This document shows positions 22,540-42,246 of a stretch of DNA of 64,000 nt, in pieces (position 1 is the stretch's first letter; every line of letters starts with the position of its first letter). Both the position numbers and the translations under genes were made by a program. The stretch covers positions 43,503,847 to 43,567,846 of the forward strand of contig CP154954.1 in the NCBI GenBank assembly GCA_039621445.1, read 5' to 3'. This stretch comes from Euglena gracilis. Taxonomy: Eukaryota. The notes below the pieces were generated by a model. That model ran no database searches. It was given only the letters and a program-made list of their open reading frames with translations, and had not been told where the DNA came from.

Positions 22540-22544
22540 ATTCC

Positions 22545-24335: not shown

Positions 24336-24399
24336 CTGAAAATTACTCCTTACAAGGGTGTGTTCACCAATTGCAGGGGGGAAGAAATGCCACCCCCCA

Positions 24400-25300: not shown

Positions 25301-27183
25301 GGTGCTTTGGAAGGTGCCCTGGCCCCCCTTTTTTCAGTGCACAATCTGGCATCACAAAAAAAATGGCAAAGTGCGGAGCCCGAGGTGCCTCGTACTCCCT
25401 CGAGGCAAGCCGACCAGGGAGGCAGCGACACCGAGGGCGAAGCACAAAGACATTGTGAGCCCGACCCCCCACACATATACAAAAATTTGTCTTCAAACCC
25501 CCTCGGTCAGAAGATGGGGGCCAGGGGGGGGAGGTGAGGGGGGACCCCCCAGGGAAAAAGAAAGCGCCATGGTCGACACGTCGGAGAAAATGCAGCCAAC
25601 TCCGGCGAGGCGGCACTAAGCGGGACCTCCTAACCCAGCGCAGCGAACAACCGCACAAAAAACCGCTGGCGTGCAAGGCATGGCCTCACAATGTCTTTGT
25701 GCTTCGCCCTCGGTGTCCCTTCCTCCATTTTCGGCTTGCCTCGGTACGACTCCAGCTAAGTCGGAGACTACAGGAATTTGTTCTTGTACTCGGTGGCGTT
25801 AGCAGGAAGTGTGGAAGTGCCACTGATCGACTTGGGGCACACACCAGCGGACGTTGCGTTCAAATTGGCTGAGCGTTGGCTGGAAAAGATTTCGAAGAAA
25901 GACAAGGGGATGACGGAGAGAGCTGAGCGGTCGGCGATGGATGATGACGCCGGAGAAGACGAGGAGGACAACGACAACGACGAGGCAGATGAACGGCTCC
26001 CCTGGCAGGAGGAACTGGCGCCTCTGGCGCCAGAGCTGGCAACGTGCCTTCGGCACGCCGAAAAAGGAGATCGACTACCGTGAAAATAGGGTTTGGGGAG
26101 CTACCAAGGTATCAGGGGATAAAAGTAAGAGCGGAAGATAATAATCATGGTTCAGACGGAAAGGGGGCTTGGGACAAGCAGCTGAAAACATAACAGCAAA
26201 AGATGTTGCACCTGGAGAGGATGGTGGCATGCCTGTATGGCAGTGTTGATGCAGATTATCAAATATTGGCACAACAACTGTTTTTTGCTGTAGCAGAGCT
26301 GGAACAGACGCTGCTGAAGGAGAGGAAGAAGTGCAGCATTCCTGGGGCAATCCCAAGTACAAGTAACAGGCTCTTCTCCAAGGAAGATTTGGCAGTTGAC
26401 AAAGCCCAATGGGCTCTGAATCAAGCAGGCTTGACTCCAGCCTTCTCCAGACATTCTATGTCTCATTTTCCCATTCCCACAGGGAACAAAGGGTTCAAGT
26501 TCAAACTTGGGAAAGGAAAAGGCTATGGGAGCCAATTGAAATCTTTGAGAGGAAAGGGCAATTGCAGCCAATGGAGACCATGGTGGTCCAAGGGGTATAA
26601 ATCCCCTCTGGAAAATTGCCTCTCCCCCCTCATTTTATCAGGAAAGGCAATGGCAAGGCCTGAAGCATCAAAGACCCCAGGAGGGGGTGAAATGAGCAAG
26701 GTCAACACCAGAAGGAATCAAGGCCAGCAGGCCCCACCTGCCCATGGAGGGCAAGCCAGAAACCAAGATTGATTTGGGGAGAGATCCCCCAGCTGAGCCC
26801 CCTGCTGACCACTATCCAGATGCCATCTCCAGCCTTGCAAGGGCTCCTGGAAGGAGGGAATTGGCCCACACCACACTCCCCCCCAGAGGAGTGGGAGAAG
26901 GGAATCATTCAAGGACTGGATTTCAGAGAAAGGGCATGGCTGGGGGTGCCATTGTTTCAGAGACTGAGGGAATGTTTGCCATGGTGGCAGAAAAATGCAA
27001 ACCAGTGTGTAGTGTCACTAATTCAAAATGGTGTGCAACCAGACCACCATCTACCCCAGTCTATGCCAAAAAGACAGCAGCAAAAGTCAGCTCAAGAAAT
27101 CAACTTGGCTGCAGAAATCCTGAGGGAGTACCAAGGCAGTGGGGCAACCAAAACAACTGCAAAATGCCACAGGAACTGCCCAC

Positions 27184-28003
27184 TGTCGGCCGCCGGCTTT
27201 CGCCGGCAGCCAAAAATTGCCAGAAAGCGCAAATTTCAAAGTCGCGGGTAACAGCCAACCAGTTAAAAAAACCCGCGACTTAAATTGGAAGCGGGTCAAA
27301 TTTCTAAGACCTTTCGAATTCTGTTTTTTCACAGAACTTGAGGGGTTTTCCCCATTATTTGGCAAAGAAGAAATACATTGAATTGGATTTGATCAATCAC
27401 ATTGTTGAATTGGAATTGGCAATTACATTGTTGGGCATTACATTGTTGGTTGAATTCATTGAAGGATTGGTTTGAAGGAGACCCTACAACACCGCCACCC
27501 TCACCGCCACTCCTATTCCCTATCCCCTCTTCCTTGCCCCAGGTTGTTTTTTTCATTACATTCAGTCACTCTCACAGATTTCCAACAGTGTGTTTGCTTC
27601 TCCAGTGGGTTGGGATTCATTTCAGATACAGTGGGTTGGTTTGTGGGTTGGTTTGTGCAAGAGAGTGTGAGAGAGAGAAAGAGAGAAAAGTGAGATTTCA
27701 GAGAGAAAAGTTCGATTTCATTGCAAATGGCAGATTTTTCGTTTTTCACAAAAATTTCGGAAAACTTTGAAAAAACGATCCTACGCGCCGGCTGGGGTTG
27801 GGGAAATCACCTGGGTGAAAAAATGGGGGTTGGCTTGAGCCCACCAATTCCCCGAGAAAGCACAGGCCCCACCCCGGAAACACCCACCCCCCTGCTGTCG
27901 GTGGTTATCCACGACGGCGAGGACCCCCCCGGGCCCTCGGCCCACCGGGACTCGCCGGTCGCGGGGGCGACCGGCGGCGCACAGGGGGTGGGGCCGGTGA
28001 ACA
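27184..28003 (+). repeat. 5' LTR
   Basis: TGTCGGCC...GGTGAACA, followed by TGG. Confidence 0.93.
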
Positions 28004-31000
28004 TGGTTAGCAGATGTTGGCTCACTGACTTCGTCAGTGAGGTTTTTTCAGATTCGGTGAACGTCGTTGCAGAGATTTGTTCCGCTGCCTCTGCCAGCAG
28101 AATCAGTGCAAAGTTTTCAGATTCGGCTGAAATCACAAGCAAAGGTTGTTTCACTGACCCAGTCAGTGAAAATTTTTCAGAGACGGTCGACACGGTCACA
28201 GAGTTTTGTTCTGGTGGCTGTGCCAGCAGAATAGTGCACGAGGACAGTTTCATCAACCCTGTGGTCTGTGAATTTTCAGAAGAATCTGCAGAAATCTGCT
28301 CGTTTCCCAGTCAATCTGTCCGAATTTCAGATTGTGATGAAAATTTTCTGAGATCTTTGGCAGAAAGCTGTTTTCAGAACGAAAAGGAAACTGAATTTTC
28401 TGCAGCCCAGTTTTCGGAACCTGTGGCATCATTGCAAATCATGATGGAATCTGTGGCAGAAAATAATTTTCAGGCTGGAGAAACTTTATTGGCTTCAGGA
28501 TTTTCAGAATCGACACAGGAATCAGATTCTGATTCTGATTCGGGGAGGGGGTCATTTACATGCATTAGGCCCATCATGGTGGTAGGGCCAGAAAATTTAC
28601 AACTGGTTCCACTGCATGGCAGTGACGACGAATCAGAACCCCCAACATACGAAAGCGAATCAGAGGAAGAAAAAGGAGCTGAAAACGCCATAATTCAGGA
28701 AATGGTTATACAGAGAATGAAAGCTGCTGGCATGTGGCCAGTAAATTTTTCAGGTTTTCAGCAAATTTCTGTGTCATCACGAGACAGCAGCCCAGGGCCA
28801 GAACAAAAAATTTTGTGTTTAACAGCCCAGCCAGAACCATTGCTGTTAACACAGAGTTCAGAATCCCAGTCAGCACAGCCAGCTGCAGCCCAGCTGCAGG
28901 TTTTTCAGCCAGCCCAGCCGTTTTTGGCTGAGATATCTGTCCCAGCCCAGATGCCTGGGCAGGTTTTTCACCCAGCCCAGCAGTTTTCGGCTGGGCCATC
29001 TGTCCCAGCAATCATGGAGCCAGCCCAGATGACTTCACAGGTTTTTCAGCCAGCCCAGCAGTTTTCGGCTGAGTCATCTGTTCCAGCAATCATGGGACCA
29101 GCCCAGATGCATGGGCAGGTTTTTCAGCCAGCGTTAACAGTGTCTTCAAACACAGGCCCAGCCCAGATTTTTCAGCCAATTCAGCCAGATTTTCCACAGA
29201 CCCAGCCACAGAATTTACAGCCAAACACCAGTTTTTCTGCAGAAACTGGGTCCGAAAACCCTGAAAATCAGCATGATGTGGAAATGGAATCGGGCTATGG
29301 CCAATCTGATGATGATTGGAACAACTGGGGTGAAGAAATCAGTTGTAAAATTGAATGTTTACATGGCAGACTTTTGGTGCAGGAAGGAAAAAATCCTGAA
29401 AAAAACGGCTGAAAATCTGGTGGGAGAGGCAGAAAACAGGATAAATCAGGCATTGGCCATGTCACAGGGGCAGACATTGAATCTTGTGAATGAGGCATTG
29501 GGCATGCATGATGGGCGAATGGCTGATCACATTGCCATGGTGAAACGTGAAATTCAGGCTGAACTGAGTGCAACTGTAAACGACTTGCTTTTGCAGTTTC
29601 AGCAAAATGGTGAAATGGTGCAAAATCTGGCCCAATGCCAAAGGCATTTGTTGAGTGTGGAAATGGAACGGCAGTTTGCTGAAAAAGTGAAGAAAGTGGA
29701 GGATGGAGTAAACACGTTTTTTGAGGCCCAGGTTGAGGGGTTGAGAAAAAATGAGAGGGATTTTTCTCAGAAACTGTCGATTTTGGAAAAATCTGTGGGG
29801 GAGATTCACGTGGTGGTGCAACAAGTGGGGGAGAAGGAAAAACAGCAGGAAATTGCTGTTAATCAGGTCAAATCTGCATTCGGTGAGCTAAGCTCTAGTC
29901 TGGAGGGACGCTTTGGGATCATTTTTCAGCAATGCAAAGGTTTGGGGGAGACTGAGTGTGCCAAATTTCAGGCGCAGGCTGAGAAATTGAAGGAATTTTC
30001 ACAGTCCCTGGAGCGAGAGAGCAAAGCTCTGAATGATCGTTTGGGGAGGTTGGAGAATTTTCTGGGTCGGAAAGATTTTCCCATTGAGAAAGTCTGTGAC
30101 CTGATTAACAAGAGTGAGGAAACAATTCGGTTGGAGGTGCAAAGGGAGTTGGGGCTGCAAACGAGAAAGAATTTGGAGGTCATTATCAGTGAAATGTTGC
30201 AGGAAAGGTTGAGGCTGAGTGAAAGGGAGGGGCAGTTTGAGAAAGTTCGGGCTGAAATGGAAAATTCGATGAAACAGCAGGTTGGAGTTTTACTGCAACA
30301 GCAGTCCAGTGAACTTTTTAAAGAACAGCAGGAGCAGAAAAAACTACAGCAAAAGCTGGATTTATTTCAGGCTGAGTTTTTGGTGATGAAAAATCAGCAA
30401 GCTCAATCTGCCAAATCTGCGACAGTGGATCTGACAAAGGAAACGAGAGAAAAATCAGCTGGAAACCCAGAAATCGAAGAGTTTGATCTTTTTGGTTACA
30501 ACGATTTACCTGTGATCGAGAAAAATCCGGTTGAAATTGAAGGCTATGAATACGCTGAACCAGGGTCACATGCGACACATGTCAGGCAGGTTTGTGCACG
30601 ACCTGTGGGGGCAGTGCCTGCAGGTGCAGGGCTGGTTTCATCAAATGCAGTGGCAACGCATCAATTGATGAAAAACCTGGTAGCTCCAAATTTTTCTGGA
30701 CAGCCAAAAGACTGGTCGTCCTTTGTGCGGGATTGGGATCAATATTTCAGGACGTTGGTTATTTTGCAAAATGGACATATGTCTGATTCACTCAAACTTC
30801 AGCTTTTTGCAATGACGCTGGACGACACAAATCAAAAGGAATTGCAATTCCGACTGGAATTGAACGGAAAAAACTCTTTTCGAGGAGGAATTTGACAGGC
30901 TTGAAGGGAAATATGCTGGAATCCCAACACACCTGTGCCAGAAAAAAATGGTATGATGTGAACCTCGTGAACCAAGGGAAAATTACCGTACGGGAATGGC

Positions 31001-31982
31001 GAGATTTTGTCATAAATTTCAGAATAGCCTGGAGACAGGTGAAAAGCGCCACTGACGATGAGGCAGAAAGACTGGTCAAGGGAAAACTGCCAAATTTCAT
31101 TTTGCATTGGGTCGCCGATGAGGAGGAAAGGAAATCAACGTGTGGACCGAAAGTCAAAATGTACCCTGGAGTGCCTGCAACCTGAGGAAAACATTATTTG
31201 TGCCGTGGAACGTGTCACTGGGGAAAAGCCCTGCAAGGTTTCGAAAGTTTCACCGCTGGAGTTCGAAGTCTTTTTGCCCAACACTACGATTTGCGACAAA
31301 CTGAAAGAGGTCAGTGGGAAACCAATCACAGGCACGGATAAAAGGATCAAAATTGTGGAGGAACAGCCAAAAATGGGAGCTGAAGAAATTTTCCGTTTTG
31401 TTGAGCGAAAATTGTCATCCAGGGATTCTCAAGACATAATACACAGTTCCAGAGAGCCAAATGGGTTTGGAAATCGGAGGGCCAGGTCTGCAAAGGCAGA
31501 TCGGGCCAAGGGGTCCAGGACACCCTCCACAGCACGGTCAGCAAAGGGGGGCGAAACGGTGGCAAAACCGTCCGTTGGAAAACCAGATTCACAGGTGGCA
31601 GCTCCTGCGACCAATGCAAACGTGCACCCCCCAGTGCAAAATCCAGTTCCAGTGATTTCGATCACAGTCATTGCCACCAACCCCCCCGGTTATCCTACTC
31701 ACAACCCTCCAGCAATCTCAATTTGGCAATGAGGGGGGATGGAGAAACGATTCTGGGTGGAATTCCAATGCCAATGCCAATTTTCAGGGAAATCAGTGGT
31801 GGAACTCAAATCAACAGAATTTTGATTCGCAGTCTGGTGGTGGCAAAGGCAAAGGCAAAGGAAAGGGCAAAGGAAACAATTCCTGGGAGAAAGGAAACAA
31901 TGGAAATGACTGGTCTAGGGGAAAGGGCCAGGACGGTGGAAAAGGCAAAGGCAAAGGAAGGGGGAAAGGAAACCGTTGCTAG
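28003..31982 (+). pseudogene. Gypsy gag-like ORF (frameshifted; QVFQPAQ repeats, coiled coil, GKGKG-rich C-terminus)
   Basis: A chain of overlapping ORFs (to 29412, 29273-30895, 30892-31185, 31058-31732, 31671-31982). A capsid-like segment PNFSGQPKDWSSFVRDW is present. Confidence 0.7.
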
Positions 31983-32105
31983 GATAGCCGGGGTGGACCG
32001 TTCGGGACGGGAGCCGCCCCGGGCTCGCATACCCAGCCCCACACAAAGACATACACAAATCCCAGGTGGCAAGAAAAATCTCGTGCGAGTGAAAACGAAA
32101 GCACG

Positions 32106-33140
32106 ATGAAAAATCTGCCATACCAGGAGATCTCTACACAAGGTGTGTCCAGTGTGTCGGGTGCGTGCATGCGTGACGTGCAAATCTGTGACTCGGCCCA
32201 AATCTGTAAAAAATCAGATCCCATAAGGGATCGTGCACAGCCTTCCGTAAAGAAAAGAGCTTTAGACCTTTTTTGCGGTAAAGGCTCGGTTGGGGATTGC
32301 CTGAGAGAGCAGGGGTTTAAGGTTGTGTCAGTGGACATAAACCCCAGATTTAACCCAACCCACTGTGCAAATGTTTTGGAGTGGAGATATTGGAGGTACC
32401 CCCCCGGATATTTTCAGATCATTGCTGCGGGGGTGCCCTGTACAGAATATAGCTTGGCCAAAACATTGGGAGTCAGAAATTTGGAGGGGGCAGATCGGCT
32501 GGTCAAAAAAACTTTGGAGATTGTCGAATACTTCAAGCCAAAATTGTGGTGGATTGAAAATCCCCGTCATGGACTTTTGCGGAAAAGACCCTGTGTTCAA
32601 AATCTGACTTTTGTCGATGTTGATTATTGTCAATTTTCAGATTGGGGATATCAAAAGCCCACCCGAATCTGGGGGAGCGAAAATCTGAGCAAGCTACAAA
32701 ACAAACTTTGTGATGGCCAGACCTGCCCGAATTTGATTCCTGGGGGGAGGAGTCACCGAGAAAAGTTGGGAGGATATGGAATGACAGTTGGTACTCAAAA
32801 AAAATGGAGGATGCCCAAACAACTGGTGGAGTATTTGTTAACCGTGTTGGAACGAAAAAGCGGATATCGTAGGGAGGATTATGCTGTTAGGAAAGTTTGT
32901 ATGGAGGAAATTGAGAAGGAATTTCGGGTTAAGGCGGAACGGGATTGTTTTGCAACCAGCCAAAATGCCAGGTGTGAAAAGTTTTACGGGGAGGATGATG
33001 ATGCCATGAAAAAGGATTGGGGGGCGGAGGAAACGTTGTGGATGAATCCCCCCTGGACTTTGTGGCCTGAGGTGGCTGAAAAATTGCAAAATTCCAATTG
33101 TCGGGCAATTTGTATTTGCCCAGACTGGAACAGGAGGTGA
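32106..33140 (+). CDS. Fused C5-cytosine DNA methyltransferase plus Dam-like N6-adenine methyltransferase (3' end truncated)
   Basis: C5 motifs: DLFCGKG (I), VSVDIN (II), AGVPC (IV, 32436), IENP (VI, 32556), QKPTRIW (VIII-like). These continue in frame into DCFAT..NARC..DAMKKDW..WMNPPW (33045)..ICPDW. Confidence 0.88.
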   Translation: MKNLPYQEISTQGVSSVSGACMRDVQICDSAQICKKSDPIRDRAQPSVKKRALDLFCGKGSVGDCLREQGFKVVSVDINPRFNPTHCANVLEWRYWRYPPGYFQIIAAGVPCTEYSLAKTLGVRNLEGADRLVKKTLEIVEYFKPKLWWIENPRHGLLRKRPCVQNLTFVDVDYCQFSDWGYQKPTRIWGSENLSKLQNKLCDGQTCPNLIPGGRSHREKLGGYGMTVGTQKKWRMPKQLVEYLLTVLERKSGYRREDYAVRKVCMEEIEKEFRVKAERDCFATSQNARCEKFYGEDDDAMKKDWGAEETLWMNPPWTLWPEVAEKLQNSNCRAICICPDWNRR

Positions 33141-33786
33141 TGGGAGGATGGGAGAATGATGGGAGGATTTTGAGGGGAACCCGTTGGCGGGTGTGGGCCT
33201 TGTTGATCGATAGAAGGCAACCCTCCCAGGGGGGGGGCAGCCCCAGGGAAGAAAAAATTGGTGCGGCTGAAAAAAAGAATGTTGAGGGGGACGAAAACTC
33301 GGGGAGGAGCAAACTCGGGGAGGAGCGAAAAAAGGGGGGGGAGGACGGCGAGTTAAACAGGCAAAGGGGAACAAAAGAAAAAAGGGGAAAAAAACGGCCA
33401 GAATGATTCGGGGGGGAGGACAGAGGTGAAAACCTCATTTGTGAGGAAAGGGTTGATAGGGGGAAGGATCCTGGACCAAAGGTGAAATGACAAAAAATTG
33501 GAAAGGAAAATGATTGGCGGGGTGTGGAATAAGAGAAGTGAAAAAATTGATGAAAAACATTAAAGGATGTGGAATTGTTGTGGCAATTGGTCTTTTTCCA
33601 TGGTTGGCAAAGCATTTTTATTTCACAAAGAATGAGCAAGCCCCGTGATTTGCGGGGTGTTGTGACACAAGTTCGGGAAAGACGGAGGGGTCGCACATTT
33701 GTGGGAAATGGGACACGGCTTGGACGGTTGGTTGGGTTGCCGGGGGGTTGGACCAGGAATTTGAGTGATGAGGGGGGGGTTGCCAT

Positions 33787-35189
33787 TTGGAGGGAAGTGA
33801 CCCCCCAGTGACAAGTTATCAACCGAAAATTGGGAGGGGGAAGGACAAAAAAGAGGAGGAACGGGTAGTCAAGTTGAGGGAACAAGTTTTGGAAGATTAC
33901 CGGGGGACGGTATTTCGGTCATCGCCATTTCCAGACCCCCCCGAAAGAGGACAATATGGTTATGCATACATACCTTTGAAGGAGGGGGCAAAGCCAACCA
34001 GACAGAAGCCTTTTTTCATGCACGGTGAGAGGAAAGAGGCACTTGAAAAAATCACCCAAGACTGGCTCGACAAAAAATACATTGAGCCAGCCACAGCCAA
34101 AAATTCAGAATGGCTGTCCCAGACTTTTCCAGTTCCAAAAAAATCCAACGATTTTCCGTGGAGGGGGGTGGTGGACCTCAGGGGGCCAAACAGCCAAACA
34201 AGGCGATGCAACTACCCCCTACCCAAAATTGAAGACATTTTGGTCAAACATGGTGCAAACCAAATGTTTTCGATTATCGATTTGAAGCAAGCTTTTTTTC
34301 AACAACAACCCTTACACCCAGAAAGTCGACCCATAACGTGTTGTTTCACCCCCAAAGGGATTTTTCAGTGGAGGGTGAACGTAATGGGTTTGACAAATGC
34401 CCCCCAGCAATTTCAGCAAATGATCGATGACCGTTTGACACCAGTAAGGGATATCGCCACAGGGTACATAGACGACATACTGGTGGGGACAACGGTCGGG
34501 GAAGGGGAGGATCTAGTGGGGGCACATGAAAAAGATTTGAGAAGGGTGTTGGAGGTGCTGAAAACAGAACTTTTGGTGGCTGATGAATTCAAAGCCAAAC
34601 TTTTTGTGGAGGAGGTTGAATTTTGTGGACAAATTTTAGGAAACGGGACTAGGAGGCCAGCACCGGGTAAGTTACGAGCGATCGAAAAGTGGGAGGTTCC
34701 AAAAACAATTACGGCTTTGAGAGCCTTTTTCGGATTCACAAATTATTACAATGCATACATTCACATGTATGCGGAAGTAGCTGCCTGGTTGCAAGACAAG
34801 TTGAAAGTCCCCAGGGAGGTGGGAAAGAAAGGAAGTCGAAAACCTGTGGAATTTGATGGGGAGGATTTAAAAGCTTTTGAGGAACTGAAAAAAAGGTTGT
34901 GTTCGGGCCTGATGTTGCAACGAGTAGACCCAGATAAACCCTTTGTGCTAAGGGTTGATGCCAGTGGGTACGCCGTTGGGGCAACGTTAGAGCAAATGAA
35001 GGAGGGGGGAGGAAGACCCACAGTCCAGGATGTGATTGAGAAAAAAACTGTGCCAGTGGCTTTTATGTCTCGAAAATTGACCGAGGGGCAAAGAAAATGG
35101 ACCCCCAGGGAGTTGGAGACGTATGCCATAATTTTGGCACTACAAAAATGGAGAGTTGGATTGGATTGCAACCCGTTTTGGTTTTAACC
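33787..35189 (+). pseudogene. Gypsy reverse transcriptase and RNase H (5' part)
   Basis: WRGVVDLRGPN, IIDLKQAF, MGLTNAP, YIDD (34465), VDASGYAVGA, AFMSRKL, RELE. The frame is broken at ..PVLVLT. Confidence 0.93.
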
Positions 35190-36791
35190 GTTATAACCAC
35201 CCCCCTGGTGGGGGGTTACACGAACCCATTCGGTGGACAAATGAGAAGTGCTACCTCCACCCCAGGGTTGGATGGGAAGCCATTCGGTATTGAGGTAGGT
35301 GGTAGGGGGGGGTCCCGACCACCCCGCGGGTGAGGTGGAAGGGGGGGGTCCGGGCCCCACCTGCCCCCCCCTCCTTGACAGGTGCTAAAAAATAGCAGAA
35401 AATTTTCTTCCAGCGCTGCGCGCCGGAAAATGAGCAAAAACACCTCTTTTGCTGACCTTTGGCCATATTGACCATTTTTTGATGTGCTGGTTTTTTCCCC
35501 CCAAAAATGTTTAAAAAATTTCAAAAAATGAGCATTTTTGGATCGATTTTCAAAAAAATCAGGGATTTTTGACCGTTTTCGACCCGATTTCTGTCCCTTT
35601 GCCCGGTCCGACCCCCCCCCCTCAAGGCTTCCCATCCAACCCTGTCCACCCCCCCTCCAGGAAACTGTCCTCCCAAGAAAATGTTGTCTGCACCCACCCG
35701 TACGTAGGGGGACTTGTCTCCTGCCCTTGTATCCAGTGACCATTTTCCTCAATTTTTTTAAGTTATTGATTTTTTTTTGTTTTCAAAGAGGCAATTTCCG
35801 GGGTCAAAGAATTCCAAACTTTTTTCAGGCTCTGGTGACAAATCTTGTGAAAAAAGCTGCTTTTACCCAAAAATTACCGTTCAATTTTTTCCCACTGACC
35901 TCAGACCTGCCTGGGAAACTGTCTTCTCTCTTCCGTACCTGGCAGTCTTTTTCAGTCGGGTGCCTGCCCCACGGGGGGGGAGGGGTTCAAGGGGCAGGCA
36001 CCCCACAGCACCCCTGCCGATCCCCGCGGGGGGATATGATTTGGGGGGGTGGCAGGCATCCCAATCCCGCAGGCAACCTATAGCACCCACCCCACCTCTC
36101 CCCCCGGTTAAAAAAAAGCCTGGTGCCTGCTGACCTGACCTCCTCTGTACTCGCTGATTTGTCCGGAGACAGTTTCCCAGAAAGAGGGGAGGAATTCTGT
36201 GCTTGCACTGGAAACTGCCCTGCCGGTGAGTCAGACACCAACACCACCGCACCAACGCTGCCGCCGGTCCAACAGCGACGACCCCGACGCCCACGCCCGA
36301 CGTCGCCCTCCTCCAACAGATGCAGCCTCCTGAGGTCGCCCGCAGCCTCCCAGCAGCCCCGCAGCCCCCTTTCAGCCCGCGGCGCCCTGGACGCTGTACC
36401 CTCTGGCAGCCCTCTCTGACCCTCTCTGACAGTGTGGACCTCAGCCCCCGGCAGCCGCCTGGCAGCTTTCTGACAACATTGTGACATTGTGATGCCGGGA
36501 AACTGTGCTTTACCCTGTGTACCCGCCAACCTAACCTTTCGTCGTACCCTGGACCTGTCTCCCACCCCTGCACATGCTGATTTGTCTCCTTGTTTTTTTC
36601 TCCAAAAAGCCAATTTCCAGGGTTAAAAAATTCCGAACATTTTATCCAAGCTTCCAGTCACAAATTTGTAAAAAAAAAATGCTTTTCGGGTTTTTTTTTC
36701 GTCACTGGGGGCCAATAATTCAACTTTTCCCCCTCTGACCCTGACCCGCCCGGGAAAGTGGCCCAGCTGTGTACGCGCCTGGCCCCCCCCC

Positions 36792-39700
36792 CAGTGGGTC
36801 GGCAAGCAATGGTGTGTATTCGCTGACTTCTCAGGGACCTTCTCCTATCTCTGCACTTGCTGATTTGTCTGGAGACAATTTCCTAGGGGTCAGGTGTGTG
36901 GGCCAATGAACACAAAAATACAACTTCTTAAAAGACTTTGGGGAAATCGAGTAAGCAAATTACACAATGACTGAAAGAGAGCAAAATGGGGAAAGAACCA
37001 ACTCCAACACAACTTTTGTGTTATACAGACCATCGGCTCTACCCTGACTGCACTGCTCCTTGCAATCACGGTTTTTGGTGGTGACACCACGTCGCCACCC
37101 CACTCCACATCCTCTGCAACCCCCGGGCCGTGTCCGGATGACCTCGCTTGGCCTCGGTTCGCCCTGGCCGAGCGAGGGTTCCCGGCGCGGAACGGGGTGC
37201 TACACCAGCCACCTGAAACCCCATCGCCTGAACCACCGACTCCCACAACTCTGGCTCAACCCCCGAAGCCCCACAGCTCTGGCTCAAACCCCGAAGCCCC
37301 ACAGCTCTGGCTCAACCCCCGAAGCCCCTGGCCACCTTGGGCCCACCCCCGCAGCTCTGGCCACCCTGCCCCCCCCCCCAACCCCTGCAGCTCCCGCCCC
37401 CCCCCCACCCCCGCAGCTCTGGCCACCCTCCCCCCACCACCCCCGCAGCTCCCGGCGACCCACACTGCCCCCCTTCCCAGCTGCCCCGCAGCCCCCTTTC
37501 AGCCCACGCCGCCCTGGACGCTGTACCCTCTGGCAGCCCTCTCTGCCCCTCTCTGGCAGTGTGGACCTCAGCCCCCGGCAGCCGCCTGGCCGCTTTCTGA
37601 CAACATTGTGACATTGTGATGCCGGGAAACTGTGCTTTACCCTCTGTACCCGCCAACCTAACTCGTACCCTGGACCTGTCTCCCACCCTTGCACATGCTG
37701 ATTTGTCTCCTTGTTTTTTTCCCTCCAAAAAAGCCAATTCCCAGGGTGAAAAAGTTCCGAGCATCTCATCCAAGCTTCCAGTCACAAATTTGTAAAAAAA
37801 AATGCTTTTTGGGTTTTTTTCGTCACCGGGTGCCAATAATTCAACGTTTCCCCCTCTGACCCTGACCCGCCCGGGAAAATGGCCCAGCTGTGTACGCGCC
37901 AGAGGGGGGGAGGTTGGTTATTGGGATTTTGTCCCTACCCCTCAACCCGGAAATAGTTTTCCCGGGAAACTGTCCTTGACCCTCTGTACCGCACCGGGGT
38001 GGCTATTTTCGGAGTGAGTGACTTTTTGGCTCCTCCCTGGGAGTGGGGTGGGGTCGGCCACCTGGACCAAAGGCGGCGGGAATTTTTTGGGGGTTTTTTT
38101 GACCAAAATTCATTTATTTTCAGCCAATTTTTTTTGCCATTTTGTCATTTTGGCCAAGTGGCCAAAGTGACTGACCATCCCCCCTGGGGGGGGGGTAGGG
38201 TGTGGGTGATTGGTTTTTGGAAGTGGGTGGCTGGTTTTTTAAAAAGTCACTGACTGGATTTTTGAAAATGGAAAGTGACCCCCCCCCCCAGTGGGTCGGA
38301 AAGCAATGGTGTGTGTTCGCTGTCTTCTTAGGGACCTTCTCCTATCTCTGCACTTGCTGATTTGTCTGGAGACAATTTCCTAGGTGTCAGGTGTGTGGGC
38401 CAGTGAACACAAAAATACAACTTCTTAAAAGACTTTGGGGAAATCGAGTAAGCAAATTCCACAATGACTGAAAGAGAGCAAAATGGGGAAAGAACCAACT
38501 CCAACACAACTGACTGCACTGCTCCTGGCAATCCTGGTTTTTGGTGGTGGCAAAGGAGGCTGCCTGCAATGACACCACGTCGCCACCCCACTCCACATCC
38601 TCTGCAACCCCCGGGCCGTGTCCGGATGACCTCGCTTGGCCTCGGTTCGCCCTGGCCGAGCGAGGGTTCCCGGCGCGGAACGGGGTGCCACACCAGCCAC
38701 CTGAAACCCCATCGCCTGAACCACCGACTCCCACAACTCTGGCTCAACCCCCGAAGCCCCACAGCTCCGGCTCAAACCCCGAAGCCCCACAGCTCTGGCT
38801 CAACCCCCGAAGCCCCTGGCCACCTTGGGCCCACCCCCGCAGCTCTGGCCACCCTGCCCCCCCCCAAACCCTGCAGCTCCCGCCCCCCCCCACCCCCGCA
38901 GCTCTGGCCACCCTCCCCCCACCACCCCCGCAGCTCCCGGCGACCCACACTGCCCCCCTTCCCAGCTGCCCCGCAGCCCCCTTTCAGCCCACGCCGCCCT
39001 GGACGCTGTACCCTCTGGCAGCCCTCTCTGCCCCTCTCTGGCAGTGTGGACCTCAGCCCCCGGCAGCCGCCTGGCCGCTTTCTGACAACATTGTGACATT
39101 GTGATGCCGGGAAACTGTGCTTTACCCTCTGTACCCGCCAACCTAACTCGTACCCTGGACCTGTCTCCCACCCTTGCACATGCTGATTTGTCTCCTTGTT
39201 TTTTTCCCTCCAAAAAAGCCAATTCCCAGGGTGAAAAAGTTCCGAGCATCTCATCCAAGCTTCCAGTCACAAATTTGTAAAAAAAAAATGCTTTTCGGGT
39301 TTTTTTCGTCACCGGGGGCCAATAATTCAACGTTTCCCCCTCTGACCCTGACCCGCCCGGGAAAATGGCCCAGCTGTGTACGCGCCAGGGGGGGGGAGGT
39401 TGGTTATTGGGATTTTGTCCCTACCCCTCAACCCGGAAATAGTTTTCCCGGGAAACTGTCCTTGACCCTCTGTACCGCACCGGGGTGGCTATTTTCGGAG
39501 TGAGTGACTTTTTGGCTCCCCCCTGGGAGTGGGGTGGGGTCGGCCACCTGGCACCAAAGGCGCCGGGAATTTTTTGGGGTTTTTTTTTGACCAAAATTCA
39601 TTTATTTTCAGCCAATTTTTTTTGCCATTTTGTCATTTTGGCCAAGTGGCCAAAGTGACTGACCATCCCCCCTGGGGGGGGGGGGGGGTAGGGTGTGGGT

Positions 39701-42246
39701 GATTGGTTTTTGGAAGTGGGTGGCTGGTTTTTTAAAAAGTCACTGACTGATTTTTTGAAAATGGAAAGTGACCCCCCCCAGTGGGTCGGAAAGCAATGGT
39801 GTGTGTTCGCTGTCTTCTTAGGGACCTTCTCCTATCTCTGCACTTGCTGATTTGTCTGGAGACAATTTCCTAGGTGTCAGGTGTGTGGGCCAGTGAACAC
39901 AAAAATACAACTTCTTAAAATACTTTGGGGAAATCGAGTAAGCAAATTCCACAATGACTGAAAGAGAGCAAAATGGGGAAAGAACCAACTCCAACACAAC
40001 TGACTGCACTGCTCCTGGCAATCCTGGTTTTTGGTGGTGGCAAAGGAGGCTGCCTGCAATGACACCACGTCGCCACCCCACTCCACATCCTCTGCAACCC
40101 CCGGGCCGTTTCCGGTGGACCTCGCTTGGCCTCGGTTCGCCCTGGCCGAGCGAGGGTTCCCGGCGCGGAACGGGGTGCTACACCAGCCACCTGAACCCCA
40201 TCGCCTGAACCACCGACCCCCACAGCTCTGGCTCAACCCCCGATGCCCCACAGCTCTGGCTCAATCCCCGAAGCCCCTGGCCACCCTGGGCCCACCCCCG
40301 CAGCTCTGGCCACCCTGGGCCTCAACCTCCGCAGCTCTGGCCCCCCCCCCCCCCCCCCCCCGGCAGCTCTGGCCACCCTCCCCCCCCATCCCACCAGCCC
40401 CGCAGCCCCCTGTCAGCCCACGCCGCCCTGGACGCTGTACCCTCTGGCAGCCCTCTCTGCCCCTCTCTGGCAGTGTGGACCTCAGCCCCCGGCAGCCGCC
40501 TGGCAGCTTTCTGACTGGCAGTGTGGACCTCAGCCCCCGGCAGCCGCCTGGCAGCTTTCTGACAACATTGTGACATTGTGATGCCGGGAAACTGTGCTTT
40601 ACCCTCTGTACCCGCCAACCTAACTCGTACCCTGGACCTGTCTCCCACCCTTGCACATGCTGATTTGTCTCCTTGTTTTTTCCCTCCAAAAGCCAATTCC
40701 CAGGGTTAAAAAGTTCCGAGCATCTCATCCAAGCTTCCAGTCACAAATTTGTAAAAAAAAATGCTTTTCGGTTTTTTTTTCGTCACCGGGGGCCAATAAT
40801 TCAACGTTTCCCCCTCTGACCCTGACCCGCCCGGGAAAATGGCCCAGCTGTGTACGCGCCAGGGGGGGGAGGTTGGTTATTGGTATTTTGTCCCTACCCC
40901 TCAACCCGGAAATAGTTTTCCCGGGAAACTGTCCTTGACCCTCTGTACCGCACCGGGGTGGCTATTTTCGGAGTGAGTGACTTTTTGGTTCCCCCCTGGG
41001 AGTGGGGTGGGGTCGGCCACCTGGCACCAAAGGCGGCGGGAATTTTTTGGGGGTTTTTTTGACCAAAATTCATTTATTTTCAGCCAGTTTTTTTTTTTTT
41101 TGCCATTTTGTCATTTTGGCCAAGTGGCCAAAGTGACTGACCATCCCCCCTGGGGGGGAGTAGGGTGTGGGTGATTGGTTTTTGGAAGTGGGTGGCTGGT
41201 TTTTTAAAATGTCACGGACTGATTTTTTGAAAATGGAAAGTGATCCCCCCCCCAGTGGGTCGGAAAGCAATGGTGTGTGTTCGCTGTCTTCTTAGGGACC
41301 TTCTCCTATCTCTGCACTTGCTGATTTGTCTGGAGACAATTTCCTAGGTGTCAGGTGTGTGGGCCAGTGAACACAAAAATACAACTTCTTAAAATACTTT
41401 GGGGAAATCGAGTAAGCAAATTCCACAATGACTGAAAGAGAGCAAAATGGGGAAAGAACCAACTCCAACACAACCGACTGCACTGCTCCTGGCAATCCTG
41501 GTTTTTGGTGGGGGCTGAAAGGGGGCTGCGGGGCTGCTGGGATGGGGGGGGGAGGGTGGCCAGAGCTGCGGGGGGGGAGGGTGGCCAGAGCTGCGGAGGT
41601 TGTGGCCAGGGTGGCCAGAGCTGCGGGGGTGGGCCCAGGGTGGCCAGGGGCTTCGGGGATTGAGCCAGAGCTGTGTGGCATCGGGGGTTGAGCCAGAGCT
41701 GTGGGGGTCGGTGGTTCAGGCGATGGGGTTCAGGTGGCTGGTGTAGCACCCCGTTCCGCGCCGGGAACCCTCGCTCGGCCAGGGCGAACCGAGGCCAAGC
41801 GAGGTCCTCCGGACACGGCCCGGGGGTTGCAGAGGATGTGGAGTGGGGTGGCGACGTGGTGTCATTGCAGGCAGCCTCCTTTGCCACCACGCCGCCCTAG
41901 ACGCTGTTCCCTCTGGCAGCCCTCTCTGCCCCTCTCTGGCAGTGTGGACCTCAGCCCCCGGCAGCCGCCTGGCAGCTTTCTGACAACATTGTGACATTGT
42001 GATGCCGGGAAACTGTGCTCTACCATCTGTACCCGCCAACCTAACCTGTCCTCGTACCCTGGACCTGTCTCCCACCCTTGCACATGCTGATTTGTCTCCT
42101 GGCTTTTTTTCTCCAAAAAGCCAAATCCCAGGGTTAAAAACTTCCGAACATTTTATCCAAGCTTCCAGTCACAAGTTTGTAAAAAAAAATACTTTTCGGG
42201 TTTTCTTCGTCACCGGGGGCCAATAATTCAACTTTTCCCCCTCTGA
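36792..42246 (+). repeat. Tandem array of about 1.49-kb units (3 full plus 1 rearranged; a partial unit lies upstream)
   Basis: The unit start CAGTGGGTCGG..AAGCAATGGTGTG recurs at about 36792, 38289, 39779 and 41253. Units contain GCAGCTCTGGC subrepeats. Confidence 0.92.

What the first reader, a model, noticed from the sequence alone, without database searches (positions are those of the whole stretch)
32106..33140. Chromodomain Gypsy retrotransposon carrying a fused 5mC and 6mA DNA methyltransferase
Seen: between gag and RT, on the element's strand and inside the LTR/TSD boundaries, one frame encodes C5-MTase motifs (FCGKG, PC, ENP, QKPTR). It runs directly into a Dam-like amino-MTase (DCFA..NARC..DAM..W..NPPW). 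The same element ends in an integrase chromodomain. Known: C5-DNMT-bearing retrotransposons occur in dinoflagellates and a charophyte alga, and Dam-like domains are typical of DIRS elements. I do not know of a described Ty3/Gypsy element with both writers fused, nor of one in euglenids. Inference: the element may methylate its own cDNA with two marks (host mimicry or self-regulation) and target chromatin via the chromodomain. This copy is decayed, with a stop at 33140 and no recognisable protease.
Basis: partly seen in the sequence, partly recalled or inferred. Interest (0 to 1): 0.88.

Follow-up and report, generated by a model that had tools for sequence, protein, structure and literature searches.

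The report
Euglena retrotransposon with two DNA methyltransferases
This is a damaged copy of a Euglena jumping gene that carries its own cytosine and adenine DNA methylases plus a chromatin-reading domain; it is real and striking, but this kind of element was already reported in a 2026 preprint.

Summary
ORF 31983-33140 (+) encodes a small C5-cytosine methyltransferase module that runs straight into a Dam-like N6-adenine methyltransferase. It lies inside a Ty3/Gypsy chromovirus with 820-nt LTRs (27184-28003 and 55979-56795) and a CCAC target duplication. An almost identical Pol is EukProt's Euglena gracilis EG_transcript_113.

This copy is broken. It has a ~22-24-aa deletion and frameshift in the DAM, a scrambled protease stretch (33313-33785), and a 17.7-kb interruption in RNase H.

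More distant relatives (56-61% identical) keep DNMT-DAM-PR-RT-RH-IN-chromodomain in one ORF. The catalytic Cys and Glu are invariant in 181 of 181 retroelement DNMT domains. AlphaFold models match DNMT3/M.HhaI and adenine-N6 methyltransferases.

This element kind, named 'EpiLTRs' and described in E. gracilis, was published in a May 2026 bioRxiv preprint. The finding is therefore already known.

What I add as leads:
- The DNMT is a complete ~210-aa virus-type enzyme. Its nearest stand-alone relatives sit in low-GC viral contigs with double-jelly-roll capsid genes and in Tetraselmis virus 1.
- In environmental relatives, the DAM sits in several different positions.

Enzymatic activity remains unproven.

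The parts
27180..27183 (.). Left copy of the 4-bp target-site duplication, CCAC
   Evidence: The same CCAC follows the 3' LTR. Removing the element and one copy joins ..QNATGTAH to LVPWFVLSKPEG in one frame.
27184..28003 (+). 5' LTR, 820 nt, TG...CA ends
   Evidence: Self-BLAST gives 99.3% identity to 55979-56795. The two LTRs differ by 3 substitutions and one 3-nt indel. Ends read.
28004..28020 (+). Putative primer-binding site, TGGTTAGCAGATGTTGG, directly after the LTR
   Evidence: Read from the sequence. Inferred only: no tRNA was available to match (one search found none in the window).
28004..31982 (+). gag-like region: ORFs 27694-29412, 29138-30895, 31043-31732 and 31656-31982, ending in a G/K/N-rich tail
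   Evidence: No Pfam family at E<=0.01. Assigned as gag by position only. Most laid contigs lack one base at 31656, which would join frames 31043.. and 31656.. (table 4).
31980..31982 (+). TAG stop separating the gag-like frame from the pol frame; the two are in the same frame
   Evidence: The downstream hairpin is no better than shuffles (z -0.77).
31983..33140 (+). First pol ORF of this copy: leader, DNMT module and the first two thirds of the DAM, ending at TGA 33138-33140
32250..32852 (+). C5-cytosine methyltransferase module (~200 aa) with motif I FCGKG, PC, ENP, QKPTR and a conserved C..C..C..H set. It is intact in this copy.
   Evidence: Pfam PF00145. PADLOC Type II MTase, E 8.6e-9. Custom HMM 354 bits. 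38% identical end to end to a stand-alone 209-aa viral ORF. Only V131I and one synonymous change differ from the family contigs.
32883..33137 (+). DAM (N6-adenine MTase-like) domain, N-terminal part, with DCFA and NPPW
   Evidence: PF05869 41.9 bits. TIGR01712, E 4.3e-10, below its cut-off. 100% identical to P0203 aa 1-79.
33138..33157 (+). Break in the DAM: about 22-24 codons (WVKNLVAMAVKKIYFPKGTKLFEA in P0203) are missing and the frame shifts
   Evidence: tblastn alignment. HMM positions ~85-106 are absent. The loose end before 33157 spells FPKGTKLFEA (table 7).
33158..33217 (+). DAM C-terminal fragment (DGRILRGTRWRVWALLIDRR), in another frame
33313..33785 (+). Scrambled stretch where the family has the linker and aspartic protease. 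It is G/A-rich (C 12%) with many frame changes.
   Evidence: Loose ends at 33313 and 33785 spell the intact P0203 sequence, and bin 33486-33759 has no laid contig in 4 of 4 runs.
33772..35187 (+). RT-RNase H ORF (RVT_1 34135-34635; RNase H 34861-35178)
   Evidence: Pfam. 93% identical to P0203. Nearest solved structure is Ty3 RT 4ol8, E 4.3e-40.
35191..52877 (.). 17.7-kb interruption of the element inside RNase H. It holds a 1.49-kb satellite (36.3-42.2 kb) and one arm and the centre of a 7-kb palindrome.
   Evidence: The RNA-library contig of X20 runs on past 35190 with DHQSLESWTR, as in P0203.
52885..54935 (+). End of RNase H, integrase (H2C2 53596-53766, rve 53890-54123) and chromodomain (54717-54839). 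A 1-nt frameshift lies at about 54264.
   Evidence: Ty3 7q5b E 1.3e-13; CDYL2 chromodomain E 1e-9.
55370..55700 (+). 47-nt x 6.8 tandem array in the 3' untranslated region
55968..55978 (+). Polypurine tract, AAGGGAGGGGG, abutting the 3' LTR
55979..56795 (+). 3' LTR
56796..56799 (.). Right copy of the target-site duplication, CCAC
46619..50529 (-). Inverted duplicate of the element's 3' part in the other palindrome arm: LTR copy 46619-47439 and an uninterrupted integrase-chromodomain ORF 48478-50529
   Evidence: The arms differ by 18 substitutions and 11 indels.

Best explanation
This is one damaged genomic copy of the Euglena gracilis 'EpiLTR' family. An intact element is about 12 kb: a Ty3/Gypsy chromovirus whose Pol polyprotein starts with two small, virus-type DNA methyltransferase domains. 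A ~210-aa C5-cytosine enzyme comes first, then a ~130-aa Dam-like N6-adenine enzyme. These are followed by protease, RT, RNase H, integrase and a chromodomain.

Shown here:
- the element's anatomy and boundaries;
- the same one-ORF architecture in relatives that are only 56-61% identical;
- invariant catalytic residues;
- the two methyltransferase folds;
- the presence of the DNMT-DAM stretch in contigs of RNA libraries.

Inferred mechanism (my odds about 0.4-0.5):
1. The module travels with Gag-Pol into the particle or pre-integration complex.
2. It is released by the protease.
3. It methylates the element's own new cDNA, or the freshly integrated copy.
4. The copy then carries host-like 5mC in a genome where CpG methylation is the default, plus the 6mA mark of active genes.
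5. The chromodomain steers integration.

The window's own copy cannot do this. Its DNMT is intact, but its DAM is deleted and frameshifted, its protease stretch is scrambled, and its RNase H is interrupted by 17.7 kb.
For: - Boundaries: 820-nt LTRs that are 99.3% identical, TG..CA ends, a polypurine tract and a CCAC duplication. Removing the element restores a continuous flanking ORF.
- Domains: PF00145 and PF05869 in one frame; RT/RNase H, integrase and Chromo; Ty3 is the nearest solved RT and integrase.
- Organism: Pol is 93-96% identical (100% over the DAM start) to EP00667_Euglena_gracilis_P000113.
- Family architecture: P0124, P0125 and P0121 carry DNMT, Dam, RVT, RNase H, rve and Chromo in that order in single ORFs of 1763-1911 aa.
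- Conservation: the PC cysteine and ENx glutamate are invariant in 181 of 181 retroelement and 54 of 54 virus-like DNMT domains. NPP[WFY] is present in 38 of 40 near-complete DAM domains.
- Fold of the DNMT-DAM module (pLDDT 83.2): DNMT3B Z 13.9 and M.HhaI Z 13.6, with 198 residues aligned across chain 10..323; Foldseek DNMT3/DNMT1/HhaI at E about 5e-8.
- Fold of the DAM alone (pLDDT 91.2): all 4 chains with Z>=8 are adenine-N6 methyltransferases, namely CAPAM 9.7, E. coli Dam 8.2, ErmE 8.1 and T4 Dam 8.0.
- Expression hint: a 999-nt contig of a probable RNA run covers 32231-33139 with 8 differences and no gap. A metatranscriptome has contigs over 32224-32510 and 32698-33112.
- Prior description: the preprint (sections 8-10 read in full) describes the same kind in E. 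gracilis and reports more 6mA-methylated DAM-LTR insertions there.
Against: - No activity is shown for either domain.
- The preprint's expression of eukaryotic DAMs in dam- E. coli did not raise 6mA. It also found LTR expression low or undetectable in E. gracilis.
- PF00145 passes its cut-off by under 1 bit. The NCBIfam dcm and phage_N6A_met matches are far below their cut-offs.
- Only the N-terminal ~140 positions of canonical Type II C5-MTase profiles are matched, so the target-recognition part is non-canonical.
- The RNA label of run X15 is a guess, and DNA carry-over in RNA libraries is not excluded.
- CpG observed/expected in the element (0.47-0.61) is no lower than in the window overall (0.56), so there is no element-specific footprint.
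- The window shows signs of assembly trouble: homopolymer indels between palindrome arms and a scrambled stretch. Copy-level statements about 'decay' are therefore uncertain.
Confidence: 0.88

Rival explanations
1. The MTase segment is not part of the element. On this reading it is a nested insertion, for example a piece of a neighbouring DIRS-like element or of viral DNA, or it is an assembly chimera.
For: - The preprint itself warns that Euglena DAM-LTRs may reflect nested insertions or assembly artefacts.
- The window holds probable DIRS-like elements with DAM-like motifs.
- It also shows a palindrome, a 17.7-kb interruption and a scrambled stretch.
Against: - The same order (DNMT, DAM, PR, RT, RH, IN, chromodomain) is kept in single uninterrupted ORFs of relatives only 56-61% identical.
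- The E. gracilis transcript protein runs from DAM to chromodomain without a break.
- An RNA-library contig spans DNMT and DAM.
- No repeat or duplication flanks the segment in the self-comparison.
- The DNMT occurs only once in the window.
Confidence: 0.03
2. The two domains are kept by selection but do not write 5mC/6mA on double-stranded DNA. They could act on RNA or on the RNA:DNA hybrid of reverse transcription. Alternatively they could serve as binding or targeting modules, for example by reading methylated DNA or recruiting host factors.
For: - The heterologous DAM assay was negative, and the authors themselves suggest a hybrid substrate.
- The best structural match of the DAM is an RNA cap adenosine methyltransferase.
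- The DNMT lacks a canonical target-recognition domain.
- DNMT2-type enzymes with the same fold methylate RNA. Matches to DNMT2 scored Z 10.4 and 9.9. That DNMT2 methylates tRNA is recalled knowledge, not from a call.
Against: - Catalytic Cys/Glu and NPPW are invariant or nearly so, which argues against a purely binding role.
- The closest stand-alone relatives are viral genes annotated as DNA cytosine methylases. These are annotation only.
- E. gracilis DAM-LTR insertions are more often 6mA-methylated.
Confidence: 0.25
3. The enzymes are active on DNA but serve self-restraint or local silencing. They would mark the element or its surroundings as heterochromatin to limit harm to the host, rather than providing host mimicry or an active-chromatin mark for the new copy.
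For: - In E. gracilis 5mC is near-default at CG, and LTR expression is low.
- The chromodomain has a full aromatic cage, and its best matches are heterochromatin-type chromodomains such as CDYL2 and HP1.
Against: - The DAM would add a mark that the preprint associates with active genes.
- There is no element-specific CpG depletion.
- Nothing here discriminates between the two readings directly.
Confidence: 0.2

Closest known systems
EpiLTRs of Euglena gracilis (Fernandez-Moreno et al., bioRxiv 10.64898/2026.05.21.726589, May 2026). Abstract, sections 8, 9, 10, 19, 20 and term passages were read; supplements were not available.
   Same: An LTR (Ty3/Gypsy-like) retrotransposon with chromodomain, DAM and DNMT in E. 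gracilis. The DAM has NPP[WFY]. The window's Pol is near-identical to an E. gracilis transcript.
   Different: Nothing essential differs: the window holds a broken copy. The text I could read gives no domain order for Euglena. Here the order is DNMT-DAM-PR-RT-RH-IN-chromodomain. The preprint places the DNMT as sister to DNMT4 in a tree of eukaryotic representatives. I find close stand-alone relatives in viruses, which that tree apparently did not include.
Cymbomonas tetramitiformis EpiLTRs (same preprint)
   Same: Chromovirus with DAM and DNMT. Its DNMT is reported to be monophyletic with the Euglena one.
   Different: There the DNMT is appended to the 3' end of pol. Here it is at the N-terminus.
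KnitGypsy-Dnmt3 of Klebsormidium nitens, and SymbioLINE-DNMT and SymbioDIRS-Dnmt3 of Symbiodinium (de Mendoza et al. 2018, PMC5890265; passages read)
   Same: Retrotransposons that captured a C5-DNMT, with conserved catalytic residues and purifying selection.
   Different: Those DNMTs are Dnmt3-type or a Symbiodinium-specific type, they carry no DAM, and no chromodomain is mentioned in that text (0 occurrences). The preprint states that the EpiLTR DNMT acquisition is distinct from them.
DIRS-type retrotransposons with a Dam-like MT domain
   Same: The same small DAM domain (DxFA...NPPW). Probable DIRS-like elements with this motif lie in the same window. The preprint infers DIRS-to-LTR transfer of the DAM.
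   Different: DIRS elements use a tyrosine recombinase and have no DDE integrase, chromodomain or DNMT.
Stand-alone ~210-220-aa viral cytosine methyltransferases: Tetraselmis virus 1 A0A2P0VN45, uncultured low-GC contigs with a double-jelly-roll capsid gene, and Bacillus phage 'C-5 methylase I'
   Same: End-to-end similarity to the element's DNMT module:
- 38% identity, E 9e-47, to L016.
- 33% identity, TM 0.80, rmsd 3.1, to the TetV-1 model.
- 27% identity, E 2e-16, to phage Deep Blue.
The same invariant residues are present, including the C..C..C..H set.
   Different: These are free-standing genes in DNA viruses, not domains of a polyprotein.

Membership tests
Ty3/Gypsy LTR retrotransposon, chromovirus branch | Direct LTRs with TG..CA ends, flanked by a short target-site duplication | tested here: met
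   820-nt LTRs, 99.3% identical. CCAC lies on both sides, and the flanks join into one ORF.
Ty3/Gypsy LTR retrotransposon, chromovirus branch | Pol order PR-RT-RNase H-IN, with a DDE integrase | tested here: met
   The order RT, RNase H, IN is found in the window. PR is seen in the near-identical P0203 and in P0124 but is scrambled in this copy. Ty3 is the best solved match for RT (E 4.3e-40) and IN (E 1.3e-13). No RT phylogeny with reference elements was made.
Ty3/Gypsy LTR retrotransposon, chromovirus branch | Chromodomain at the C-terminus of integrase | tested here: met
   PF00385 38.1 bits, E 1.4e-9, at aa 614-652 of the IN ORF. Window coordinates 54717-54839.
Ty3/Gypsy LTR retrotransposon, chromovirus branch | Recognisable Gag (capsid/nucleocapsid) and a tRNA primer-binding site | tested here: inconclusive
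   ORFs are in the right place but have no Pfam match. A TGG-starting sequence follows the LTR, but no tRNA was available to compare.
EpiLTR (preprint definition: LTR element with chromodomain + DAM + DNMT) | All three epigenetic domains in one LTR retrotransposon | tested here: met
   for the window. for single-ORF relatives. The definition was read.
C5 DNA methyltransferase (PF00145 / DNMT fold) | Motif I (FxGxG), motif IV (PC, catalytic Cys), motif VI (ENV-like Glu), motif VIII | tested here: met
   All are present in the window. Cys and Glu are invariant in 181 of 181 retroelement DNMTs. PF00145 scores 22.9 bits against a cut-off of 22.
C5 DNA methyltransferase (PF00145 / DNMT fold) | DNMT catalytic-domain fold | tested here: met
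   The model is of relative P0124 aa 1-370 (60% identical to the window ORF). DNMT3B Z 13.9, DNMT3A 13.7, M.HhaI 13.6. Foldseek prob 1.00.
C5 DNA methyltransferase (PF00145 / DNMT fold) | Canonical target-recognition domain and motifs IX-X | tested here: inconclusive
   Sequence profiles match only their first ~118-142 positions. The structural alignment to M.HhaI runs to chain residue 323. The ~65 residues after motif VIII carry a conserved C..C..C..H set. I could not inspect model coordinates.
C5 DNA methyltransferase (PF00145 / DNMT fold) | Cytosine-C5 methylation activity | not testable with these tools
None is reported for this DNMT in the text I read.
Dam-like N6-adenine methyltransferase (PF05869 / TIGR01712) | Family HMM match with the catalytic (D/N)PP(Y/W/F) motif | tested here: met
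   PF05869 scores 41.9 bits against a cut-off of 28.1. NPPW at 33045-33056. NPP[WFY] in 38 of 40 relatives. TIGR01712 scores only 39.4 bits against a cut-off of 97, so it is not an equivalog member.
Dam-like N6-adenine methyltransferase (PF05869 / TIGR01712) | Adenine-N6 methyltransferase fold | tested here: met
   Model of P0203 aa 1-129, pLDDT 91.2. CAPAM Z 9.7, E. coli Dam 8.2, ErmE 8.1, T4 Dam 8.0. These Z values are middling. BFVD: a 130-aa Serratia phage Dam, TM 0.77.
Dam-like N6-adenine methyltransferase (PF05869 / TIGR01712) | Complete domain in this copy | tested here: not met
   HMM positions ~85-106 are missing and the rest is in another frame.
DNMT-bearing retrotransposons of de Mendoza et al. 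2018 (Dnmt3-type or SymbioLINE-type) | DNMT of the Dnmt3 clade or the Symbiodinium-specific clade | not tested
   No reference sequences were at hand. The preprint states that the EpiLTR DNMT is a distinct acquisition.

The most novel reading that the evidence does not exclude
The cytosine methyltransferase of these elements is not a trimmed eukaryotic DNMT. It is a complete 'mini' C5-methyltransferase of the kind carried as a free-standing gene by small double-jelly-roll-capsid DNA viruses of protists (polinton-like virus or virophage sized) and by a green-algal giant virus, with a conserved C-C-C-H, probably zinc-binding, recognition part.

On this reading it was captured once. It then became the founding accessory domain of a large, mostly environmental clade of Ty3/Gypsy elements. 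Within that clade its position in Pol varies, and the Dam-like domain has been added, moved or lost several times. Euglena EpiLTRs would be one twig of that clade.

Support:
- The retroelement DNMTs form a single clade (100/98).
- Their nearest relatives are stand-alone viral genes.
- The capsid gene sits near these DNMTs in 11 of 80 loci.
- Several DNMT and DAM positions are seen.

Not excluded: that DNMT4 is closer still, or that transfer went the other way.
Probability: 0.5. Interest if true: 0.55.

Novelty: already known. Interest (0 to 1): 0.4.

Why it matters
Retrotransposons that bring their own writers of both DNA marks, plus a histone-mark reader, show that mobile elements can edit the epigenetic state of their own copies rather than only suffer host silencing. 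Euglena is a good test case: nearly all its CpGs are methylated, and 6mA marks a subset of active genes (preprint).

The leads added here could sharpen the story of where such modules come from. They also give concrete natural sequences for activity tests:
- a viral origin of the DNMT module;
- a wide environmental family with shuffled domain order;
- a conserved C-C-C-H set in the DNMT.

Tried and rejected
- **Own-genome search:** no genome is held for this window.
- **Sequence searches of the PDB with the ORF or its profile:** only weak DNMT1/DIM-2 matches, E 0.003-0.09. These were superseded by the fold searches.
- **Stop-codon readthrough signal after the gag TAG:** the hairpin has z -0.77, and 38 of 200 shuffles fold as well. 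Dropped.
- **tRNA and Rfam scans of the window:** nothing found, so the primer-binding site stays unassigned.
- **CpG, GpC, ApT and GATC statistics:** the element is no different from the window as a whole, so they give no evidence on self-methylation.
- **Pfam on the gag-like ORFs and the flanking DIRS-like ORFs:** no family at E<=0.01, and at E<=1 only RVT_1 at E 0.0031. The DIRS-like label therefore rests on my reading of motifs plus a weak DAM-HMM hit (E 0.0029).
- **Zero laid depth in bin 33486-33759**: with contigs of low-coverage runs, this cannot tell an assembly error from a real unique sequence.
- **Summed contig depths**: not used as copy number.
- **dN/dS:** not computed. The metagenomic relatives are 45-54% identical, beyond synonymous saturation, and no DNA of other E. 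gracilis copies could be fetched.
- **Alignment A3**: it mixed the two domain orders and misaligned, so it was not used.
- **Bacterial promoter/terminator scan of the LTR**: not applicable to a eukaryote.
- **Not used:** The search of protein representatives, complex prediction and the genome search beyond.
Full report
**1. What is at the coordinates**

- FCGKG at 32262-32288
- PC at 32430-32453
- ENP at 32547-32564
- QKPTR at 32646-32675
- DCFA at 32940-32954
- NPPW at 33045-33056

The ORF ends at TGA 33138-33140.

Pfam finds two families in this one frame:
- PF05869 (Dam) at 41.9 bits against a cut-off of 28.1.
- PF00145 (C5 DNA methylase) at 22.9 bits against a cut-off of 22, so the cytosine enzyme only just passes.

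Other libraries agree in kind but are weaker:
- NCBIfam phage_N6A_met scores 39.4 bits (cut-off 97) and dcm 20.3 bits (cut-off 100.65).
- PADLOC Type II methyltransferase models reach E 8.6e-9, but only over their first ~142 of 344 positions.

The database searches remove any doubt that the ORF is real. 217 proteins of similar length match at E<=0.001, out of 933 candidates. 86 longer proteins match at E<=1e-10, out of 1764 candidates. Many of these carry both Pfam families.

**2. The element around it**

A self-comparison gives direct repeats at 27184-28003 and 55979-56795. They are 820 nt long and differ by 3 substitutions and one 3-nt indel. They start with TG and end with CA. An AAGGGAGGGGG polypurine tract precedes the 3' copy, and a TGG-starting sequence follows the 5' copy. 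CCAC flanks the element on both sides.

Taking out the element and one CCAC joins '..QNATGTAH' to 'LVPWFVLSKPEG..' in one frame. This closely parallels '..TTQHLIPWFLISKPEG' of another retroelement at 22.5 kb in the window. It is therefore a true integration into an older element.

Inside the LTRs, the element holds the following, in order:
- gag-like ORFs without Pfam support;
- a TAG at 31980-31982;
- the DNMT-DAM ORF;
- an RT-RNase H ORF at 33772-35187 (RVT_1, RT_RNaseH);
- after a gap, integrase plus chromodomain at 52885-54935.

The nearest solved RT and integrase are those of Ty3 (E 4.3e-40 and 1.3e-13). The chromodomain matches CDYL2/HP1-type domains.

**3. Whose element, and how this copy is broken**

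One database protein, P0203, is 100% identical to the start of the DAM and 93-96% identical over RT and IN. Its record is EP00667_Euglena_gracilis_P000113, 'EG_transcript_113'. It reads DAM, linker, protease (ILIDTGAEANLI), RT, RNase H, integrase, chromodomain, without a break.

Against this reference, the window copy shows four defects.

(a) It lacks about 22-24 codons of the DAM just after ..PDWNRR, and then continues in another frame.

(b) The stretch 33313-33785, where the linker and protease should be, is scrambled.
- Short patches identical to P0203 appear in different frames.
- The stretch is about 180 nt shorter than expected.
- It is depleted of C (12%).

(c) A 17.7-kb block replaces some 10-16 codons of RNase H between about 35190 and 52880-52897.

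(d) A 1-nt frameshift lies in the integrase at about 54264.

Contigs of four public runs support this reading.
- Their loose ends at 33157, 33313, 33785 and 35190 spell the intact P0203 sequence.
- Nearly all contigs lack a base that the window has at 33811.
- No contig could be laid on 33486-33759 in any of the 4 runs.

The flanks of the scrambled stretch are about 99% identical to the family, and the LTRs are 99.6% alike at substitution level. Uniform decay therefore cannot explain this local damage. It is either a consensus error of a long-read assembly or a local rearrangement, and I cannot tell which.

The two arms of the palindrome differ by 11 indels, 9 of them in homopolymer runs. This shows that such consensus errors occur in this window.

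The DNMT itself is intact. Only V131I and one synonymous change separate it from the family contigs.

**4. Is the MTase pair an integral part of the element?**

Yes, for four reasons:
- P0124 (1763 aa), P0125 (1911 aa) and P0121 (1804 aa) are only 56-61% identical to the window ORF. Each carries DNA_methylase, Dam, RVT_1, RNase H, rve and Chromo, in that order, in one ORF.
- A 999-nt contig of a probable RNA run covers 32231-33139 with 8 differences and no gap.
- A leaf-litter metatranscriptome has contigs over 32224-32510 and 32698-33112. The RNA label of the first run is a guess, and DNA carry-over is possible in both.
- No repeat brackets the segment.

**5. Conservation and fold**

DNMT domains: I examined 237 that cover at least 175 of 206 HMM positions. 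They comprise 181 from retroelements, 54 from virus-like contigs, 1 from a phage and the window's own.
- The catalytic Cys is invariant: 181 of 181 and 54 of 54.
- The Glu of ENx is invariant in the same counts.
- Motif I Phe and Gly, the acidic residue after strand 2, and K/T/R of motif VIII are almost invariant.
- Four further residues, C134, C161, C166 and H176 in window-ORF-fragment numbering, are kept in 179-181 of 181. I read these as a probable zinc site. That is an inference.

DAM domains: 38 of 40 near-complete domains have NPP followed by W, F or Y.

AlphaFold model of P0124 residues 1-370 (19-row alignment; mean pLDDT 83.2, pTM 0.58):
- Residues 7-217 match DNMT3B (Z 13.9, 202 aligned, rmsd 5.1), DNMT3A (Z 13.7) and M.HhaI (Z 13.6, 198 aligned, rmsd 3.7, chain 10..323).
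- Residues 225-365 match the cap-specific adenosine methyltransferase (Z 10.6).
- Foldseek's top PDB matches are all C5 DNA methyltransferases, at E about 5e-8.

AlphaFold model of the family's DAM alone (P0203 residues 1-129; pLDDT 91.2, pTM 0.85):
- Four chains score Z>=8, and all are adenine-N6 enzymes: CAPAM 9.7, E. coli Dam 8.2, ErmE 8.1 and T4 Dam 8.0. These Z values are middling.
- Foldseek supports CAPAM at E 3.5e-5.

**6. What is already known**

[quoted passage not shown] I read its abstract, sections 8, 9, 10, 19 and 20, and term passages.

The preprint reports the following:
- It describes DAM-carrying LTR elements. [quoted passage not shown]
- It places their DNMT as sister to DNMT4, in a tree whose references came from a set of eukaryotic DNMTs.
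- It reports more 6mA-methylated DAM-LTR insertions in E. gracilis.
- It found low or undetectable LTR expression there.
- It found no 6mA gain when eukaryotic DAMs were expressed in dam- E. coli.

A four-term search ('Euglena gracilis', retrotransposon, methyltransferase, chromodomain) returns only this paper. Earlier DNMT-bearing retrotransposons (de Mendoza et al. 2018, passages read) have other DNMT types and no DAM.

**7. What the present work adds (leads, not proofs)**

(a) The DNMT module is a complete small viral-type enzyme.
- It aligns end to end with a free-standing 209-aa ORF of metagenomic contig L016 (38% identity, E 9e-47).
- It aligns with the 221-aa 'C-5 cytosine-specific DNA methylase I' of Bacillus phage Deep Blue (27%, E 2e-16).
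- It matches 35 phage records at 92-97% coverage in 30 of them.
- The best BFVD structure match is the 218-aa putative cytosine DNA methyltransferase of Tetraselmis virus 1 (E 1.2e-17, TM 0.80, rmsd 3.1, 33% identity).
- The Atlas's nearest clusters are short viral PF00145 proteins, scoring 0.91.

(b) What the stand-alone relatives sit in.
- Of 80 metagenomic loci found with the module, 8 show protease, RT or integrase next to the DNMT: L002-L005, L007-L009 and L013.
- About 65 are low-GC (23-42%) contigs with the DNMT as a free gene.
- In L016 a gene five ORFs downstream is a major capsid protein (PF16903, E 2.8e-9). Its Atlas neighbours are Preplasmiviricota/Nucleocytoviricota capsid clusters, including Sputnik-type ones.
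- 11 of the 80 loci share that capsid gene.
- L060 has a D5-like primase.
- The free-standing form is very common: 3595 clusters at E<=1e-10 among 3700 candidates, mostly 209-222 aa, with longest contigs mostly under about 26 kb and up to about 50 kb.
- Two virology papers (passages only) list a cytosine methylase among polinton-like virus genes.
- The preprint's main text contains none of the words polinton, virophage or metagenom-.

(c) Phylogeny of the DNMT.
- A quick tree had 106 rows. It used proteins with both domains or at least 1400 aa, plus the loci, dereplicated at 85% from 127 rows. In it, the 69 retroelement DNMTs form one clade (SH-aLRT 95), and the window sits in a 14-row clade of DNMT-then-DAM proteins (98).
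- A careful tree used a random subsample of 48 rows: 24 of 68 retroelement rows plus the window, 20 of 34 virus-like rows, and 3 phage rows as outgroup. It gives the retroelement clade 100/98. The virus-like rows are a single clade at only 64/47.
- This fits one capture from, or shared ancestry with, the viral genes. The direction is not resolved, and DNMT4 was not in the tree.

(d) Shuffled architecture.
- Of the 206 fetched homologues, 32 have DNMT before DAM, 22 have DAM before DNMT, 151 show the DNMT only (many of these are fragments) and 1 shows the DAM only.
- Starred branches force at least 5-6 changes of arrangement on the DNMT tree.
- In the loci, the DNMT lies before PR (L002, L013), between PR and RT (L003, L009), or between RNase H and IN (L008).
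- On a DAM tree, the window family, ten DNMT-then-DAM rows and ten DAM-then-DNMT rows share one clade (SH-aLRT 91). On the DNMT tree, the corresponding rows lie in different major clades. This hints at domain exchange between lineages, but support is modest.

**8. Mechanism**

Shown: architecture, conservation and folds.

Inferred: the module rides in Gag-Pol, is freed by the protease, and methylates the element's own cDNA or new insertion. I give this about 0.4-0.5. The rivals are:
- activity on RNA or RNA:DNA hybrids, or a non-catalytic role (0.25);
- a self-silencing role rather than a mimicry role (0.2);
- a chimera or nested insertion (0.03).

The viral kinship of both domains fits an 'orphan methyltransferase that protects or disguises incoming DNA' logic, but that is an analogy, not evidence.

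**9. Verdict**

The kind is already known. Interest is moderate because of the unresolved function and the new leads on origin and diversity.

Noticed in passing
window 44493-51471 and 51973-58920: A near-perfect 7-kb palindrome (99.4% identical arms, centre near 51.7 kb). It duplicates, in inverted order, the element's integrase-chromodomain, 3' LTR and flank. The arms differ by 18 substitutions and 11 indels, 9 of them in homopolymers. It is either a real inverted duplication or a fold-back assembly artefact.
   Followed up: partly
window 36300-42250: A satellite with a ~1.49-kb unit, about 4 copies at 90-94% identity, GC-rich, with one partly inverted unit near 41.5-41.9 kb. It lies inside the block that interrupts the element.
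   Followed up: no
window 35191-35230 and 52860-52884: The two ends of the 17.7-kb interrupting block look like imperfect terminal inverted repeats (TTATAACCACCCCCC versus the reverse complement CTATAAGGACCCCCC). No target duplication is seen, and about 30-49 nt of the element are missing at the junction.
   Followed up: no
window 22400-25700 (+): A second, decayed retroelement with several features: an RT motif (HLIPWFLISKPEG), an RNase H-like stretch, a weak Dam-like hit at 24064-24336 (E 0.0029 with my HMM), and a C-terminal ORF with a tyrosine-recombinase-like HxxR...Y pattern. It is probably DIRS-like. Pfam support is weak (RVT_1 E 0.0031), and the label rests partly on recalled motifs.
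   Followed up: partly
window 26200-27183 and 56796-58920: The element's target is another probable DIRS-like element of the same type. An NPPPPW stretch lies near 58.2 kb. There are no Pfam matches.
   Followed up: partly
window 31656 and 31980-31982: Most laid contigs lack one base that the window has at 31656. Without it, the gag-like frame runs into a G/K/N-rich tail and ends at a TAG that is in frame with pol. How pol is expressed (readthrough or its own start) is open. The hairpin after the TAG is not significant.
   Followed up: partly
window 33140-33785: A local G/A-rich scrambled stretch (C 12%, G 38%) between flanks that are ~99% identical to the family. This pattern is not that of uniform decay. 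It may be a base-calling or consensus error in heavily modified DNA.
   Followed up: partly
DNMT module, window 32622-32760; loci L010-L080: Four residues (C in DYCQF, C..C in CDGQTC, H in SHRE) are conserved in 179-181 of 181 retroelement DNMTs and in most viral DNMTs. They suggest a zinc-binding mini recognition domain in this small DNMT family.
   Followed up: partly
L016, L012, L018, L021, L033, L035, L039 and others: Marine and freshwater low-GC contigs of about 10-26 kb carry the stand-alone mini-DNMT in a conserved gene block with a double-jelly-roll major capsid protein. They are probably polinton-like viruses or virophages.
   Followed up: partly
P0140 (NCBI EPS62093.1): A DAM-then-DNMT protein of this retroelement family is deposited as a hypothetical protein of the carnivorous plant Genlisea aurea, on a 2.5-kb contig. 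It may be a contaminant from a trapped protist, or a real plant copy.
   Followed up: no
window 18900-19650; 2100-2650, 5300-5600, 8240-8500: A long (TG/CA)n-type microsatellite, and related 8-10-nt periodic repeats, recur at ~2.8-kb spacing in the left part of the window.
   Followed up: no
window 55370-55700 (and 47718-48045 on the other arm): A 47-49-nt tandem array, about 6-7 copies at ~78% match, in the element's 3' untranslated region between the chromodomain and the polypurine tract.
   Followed up: no
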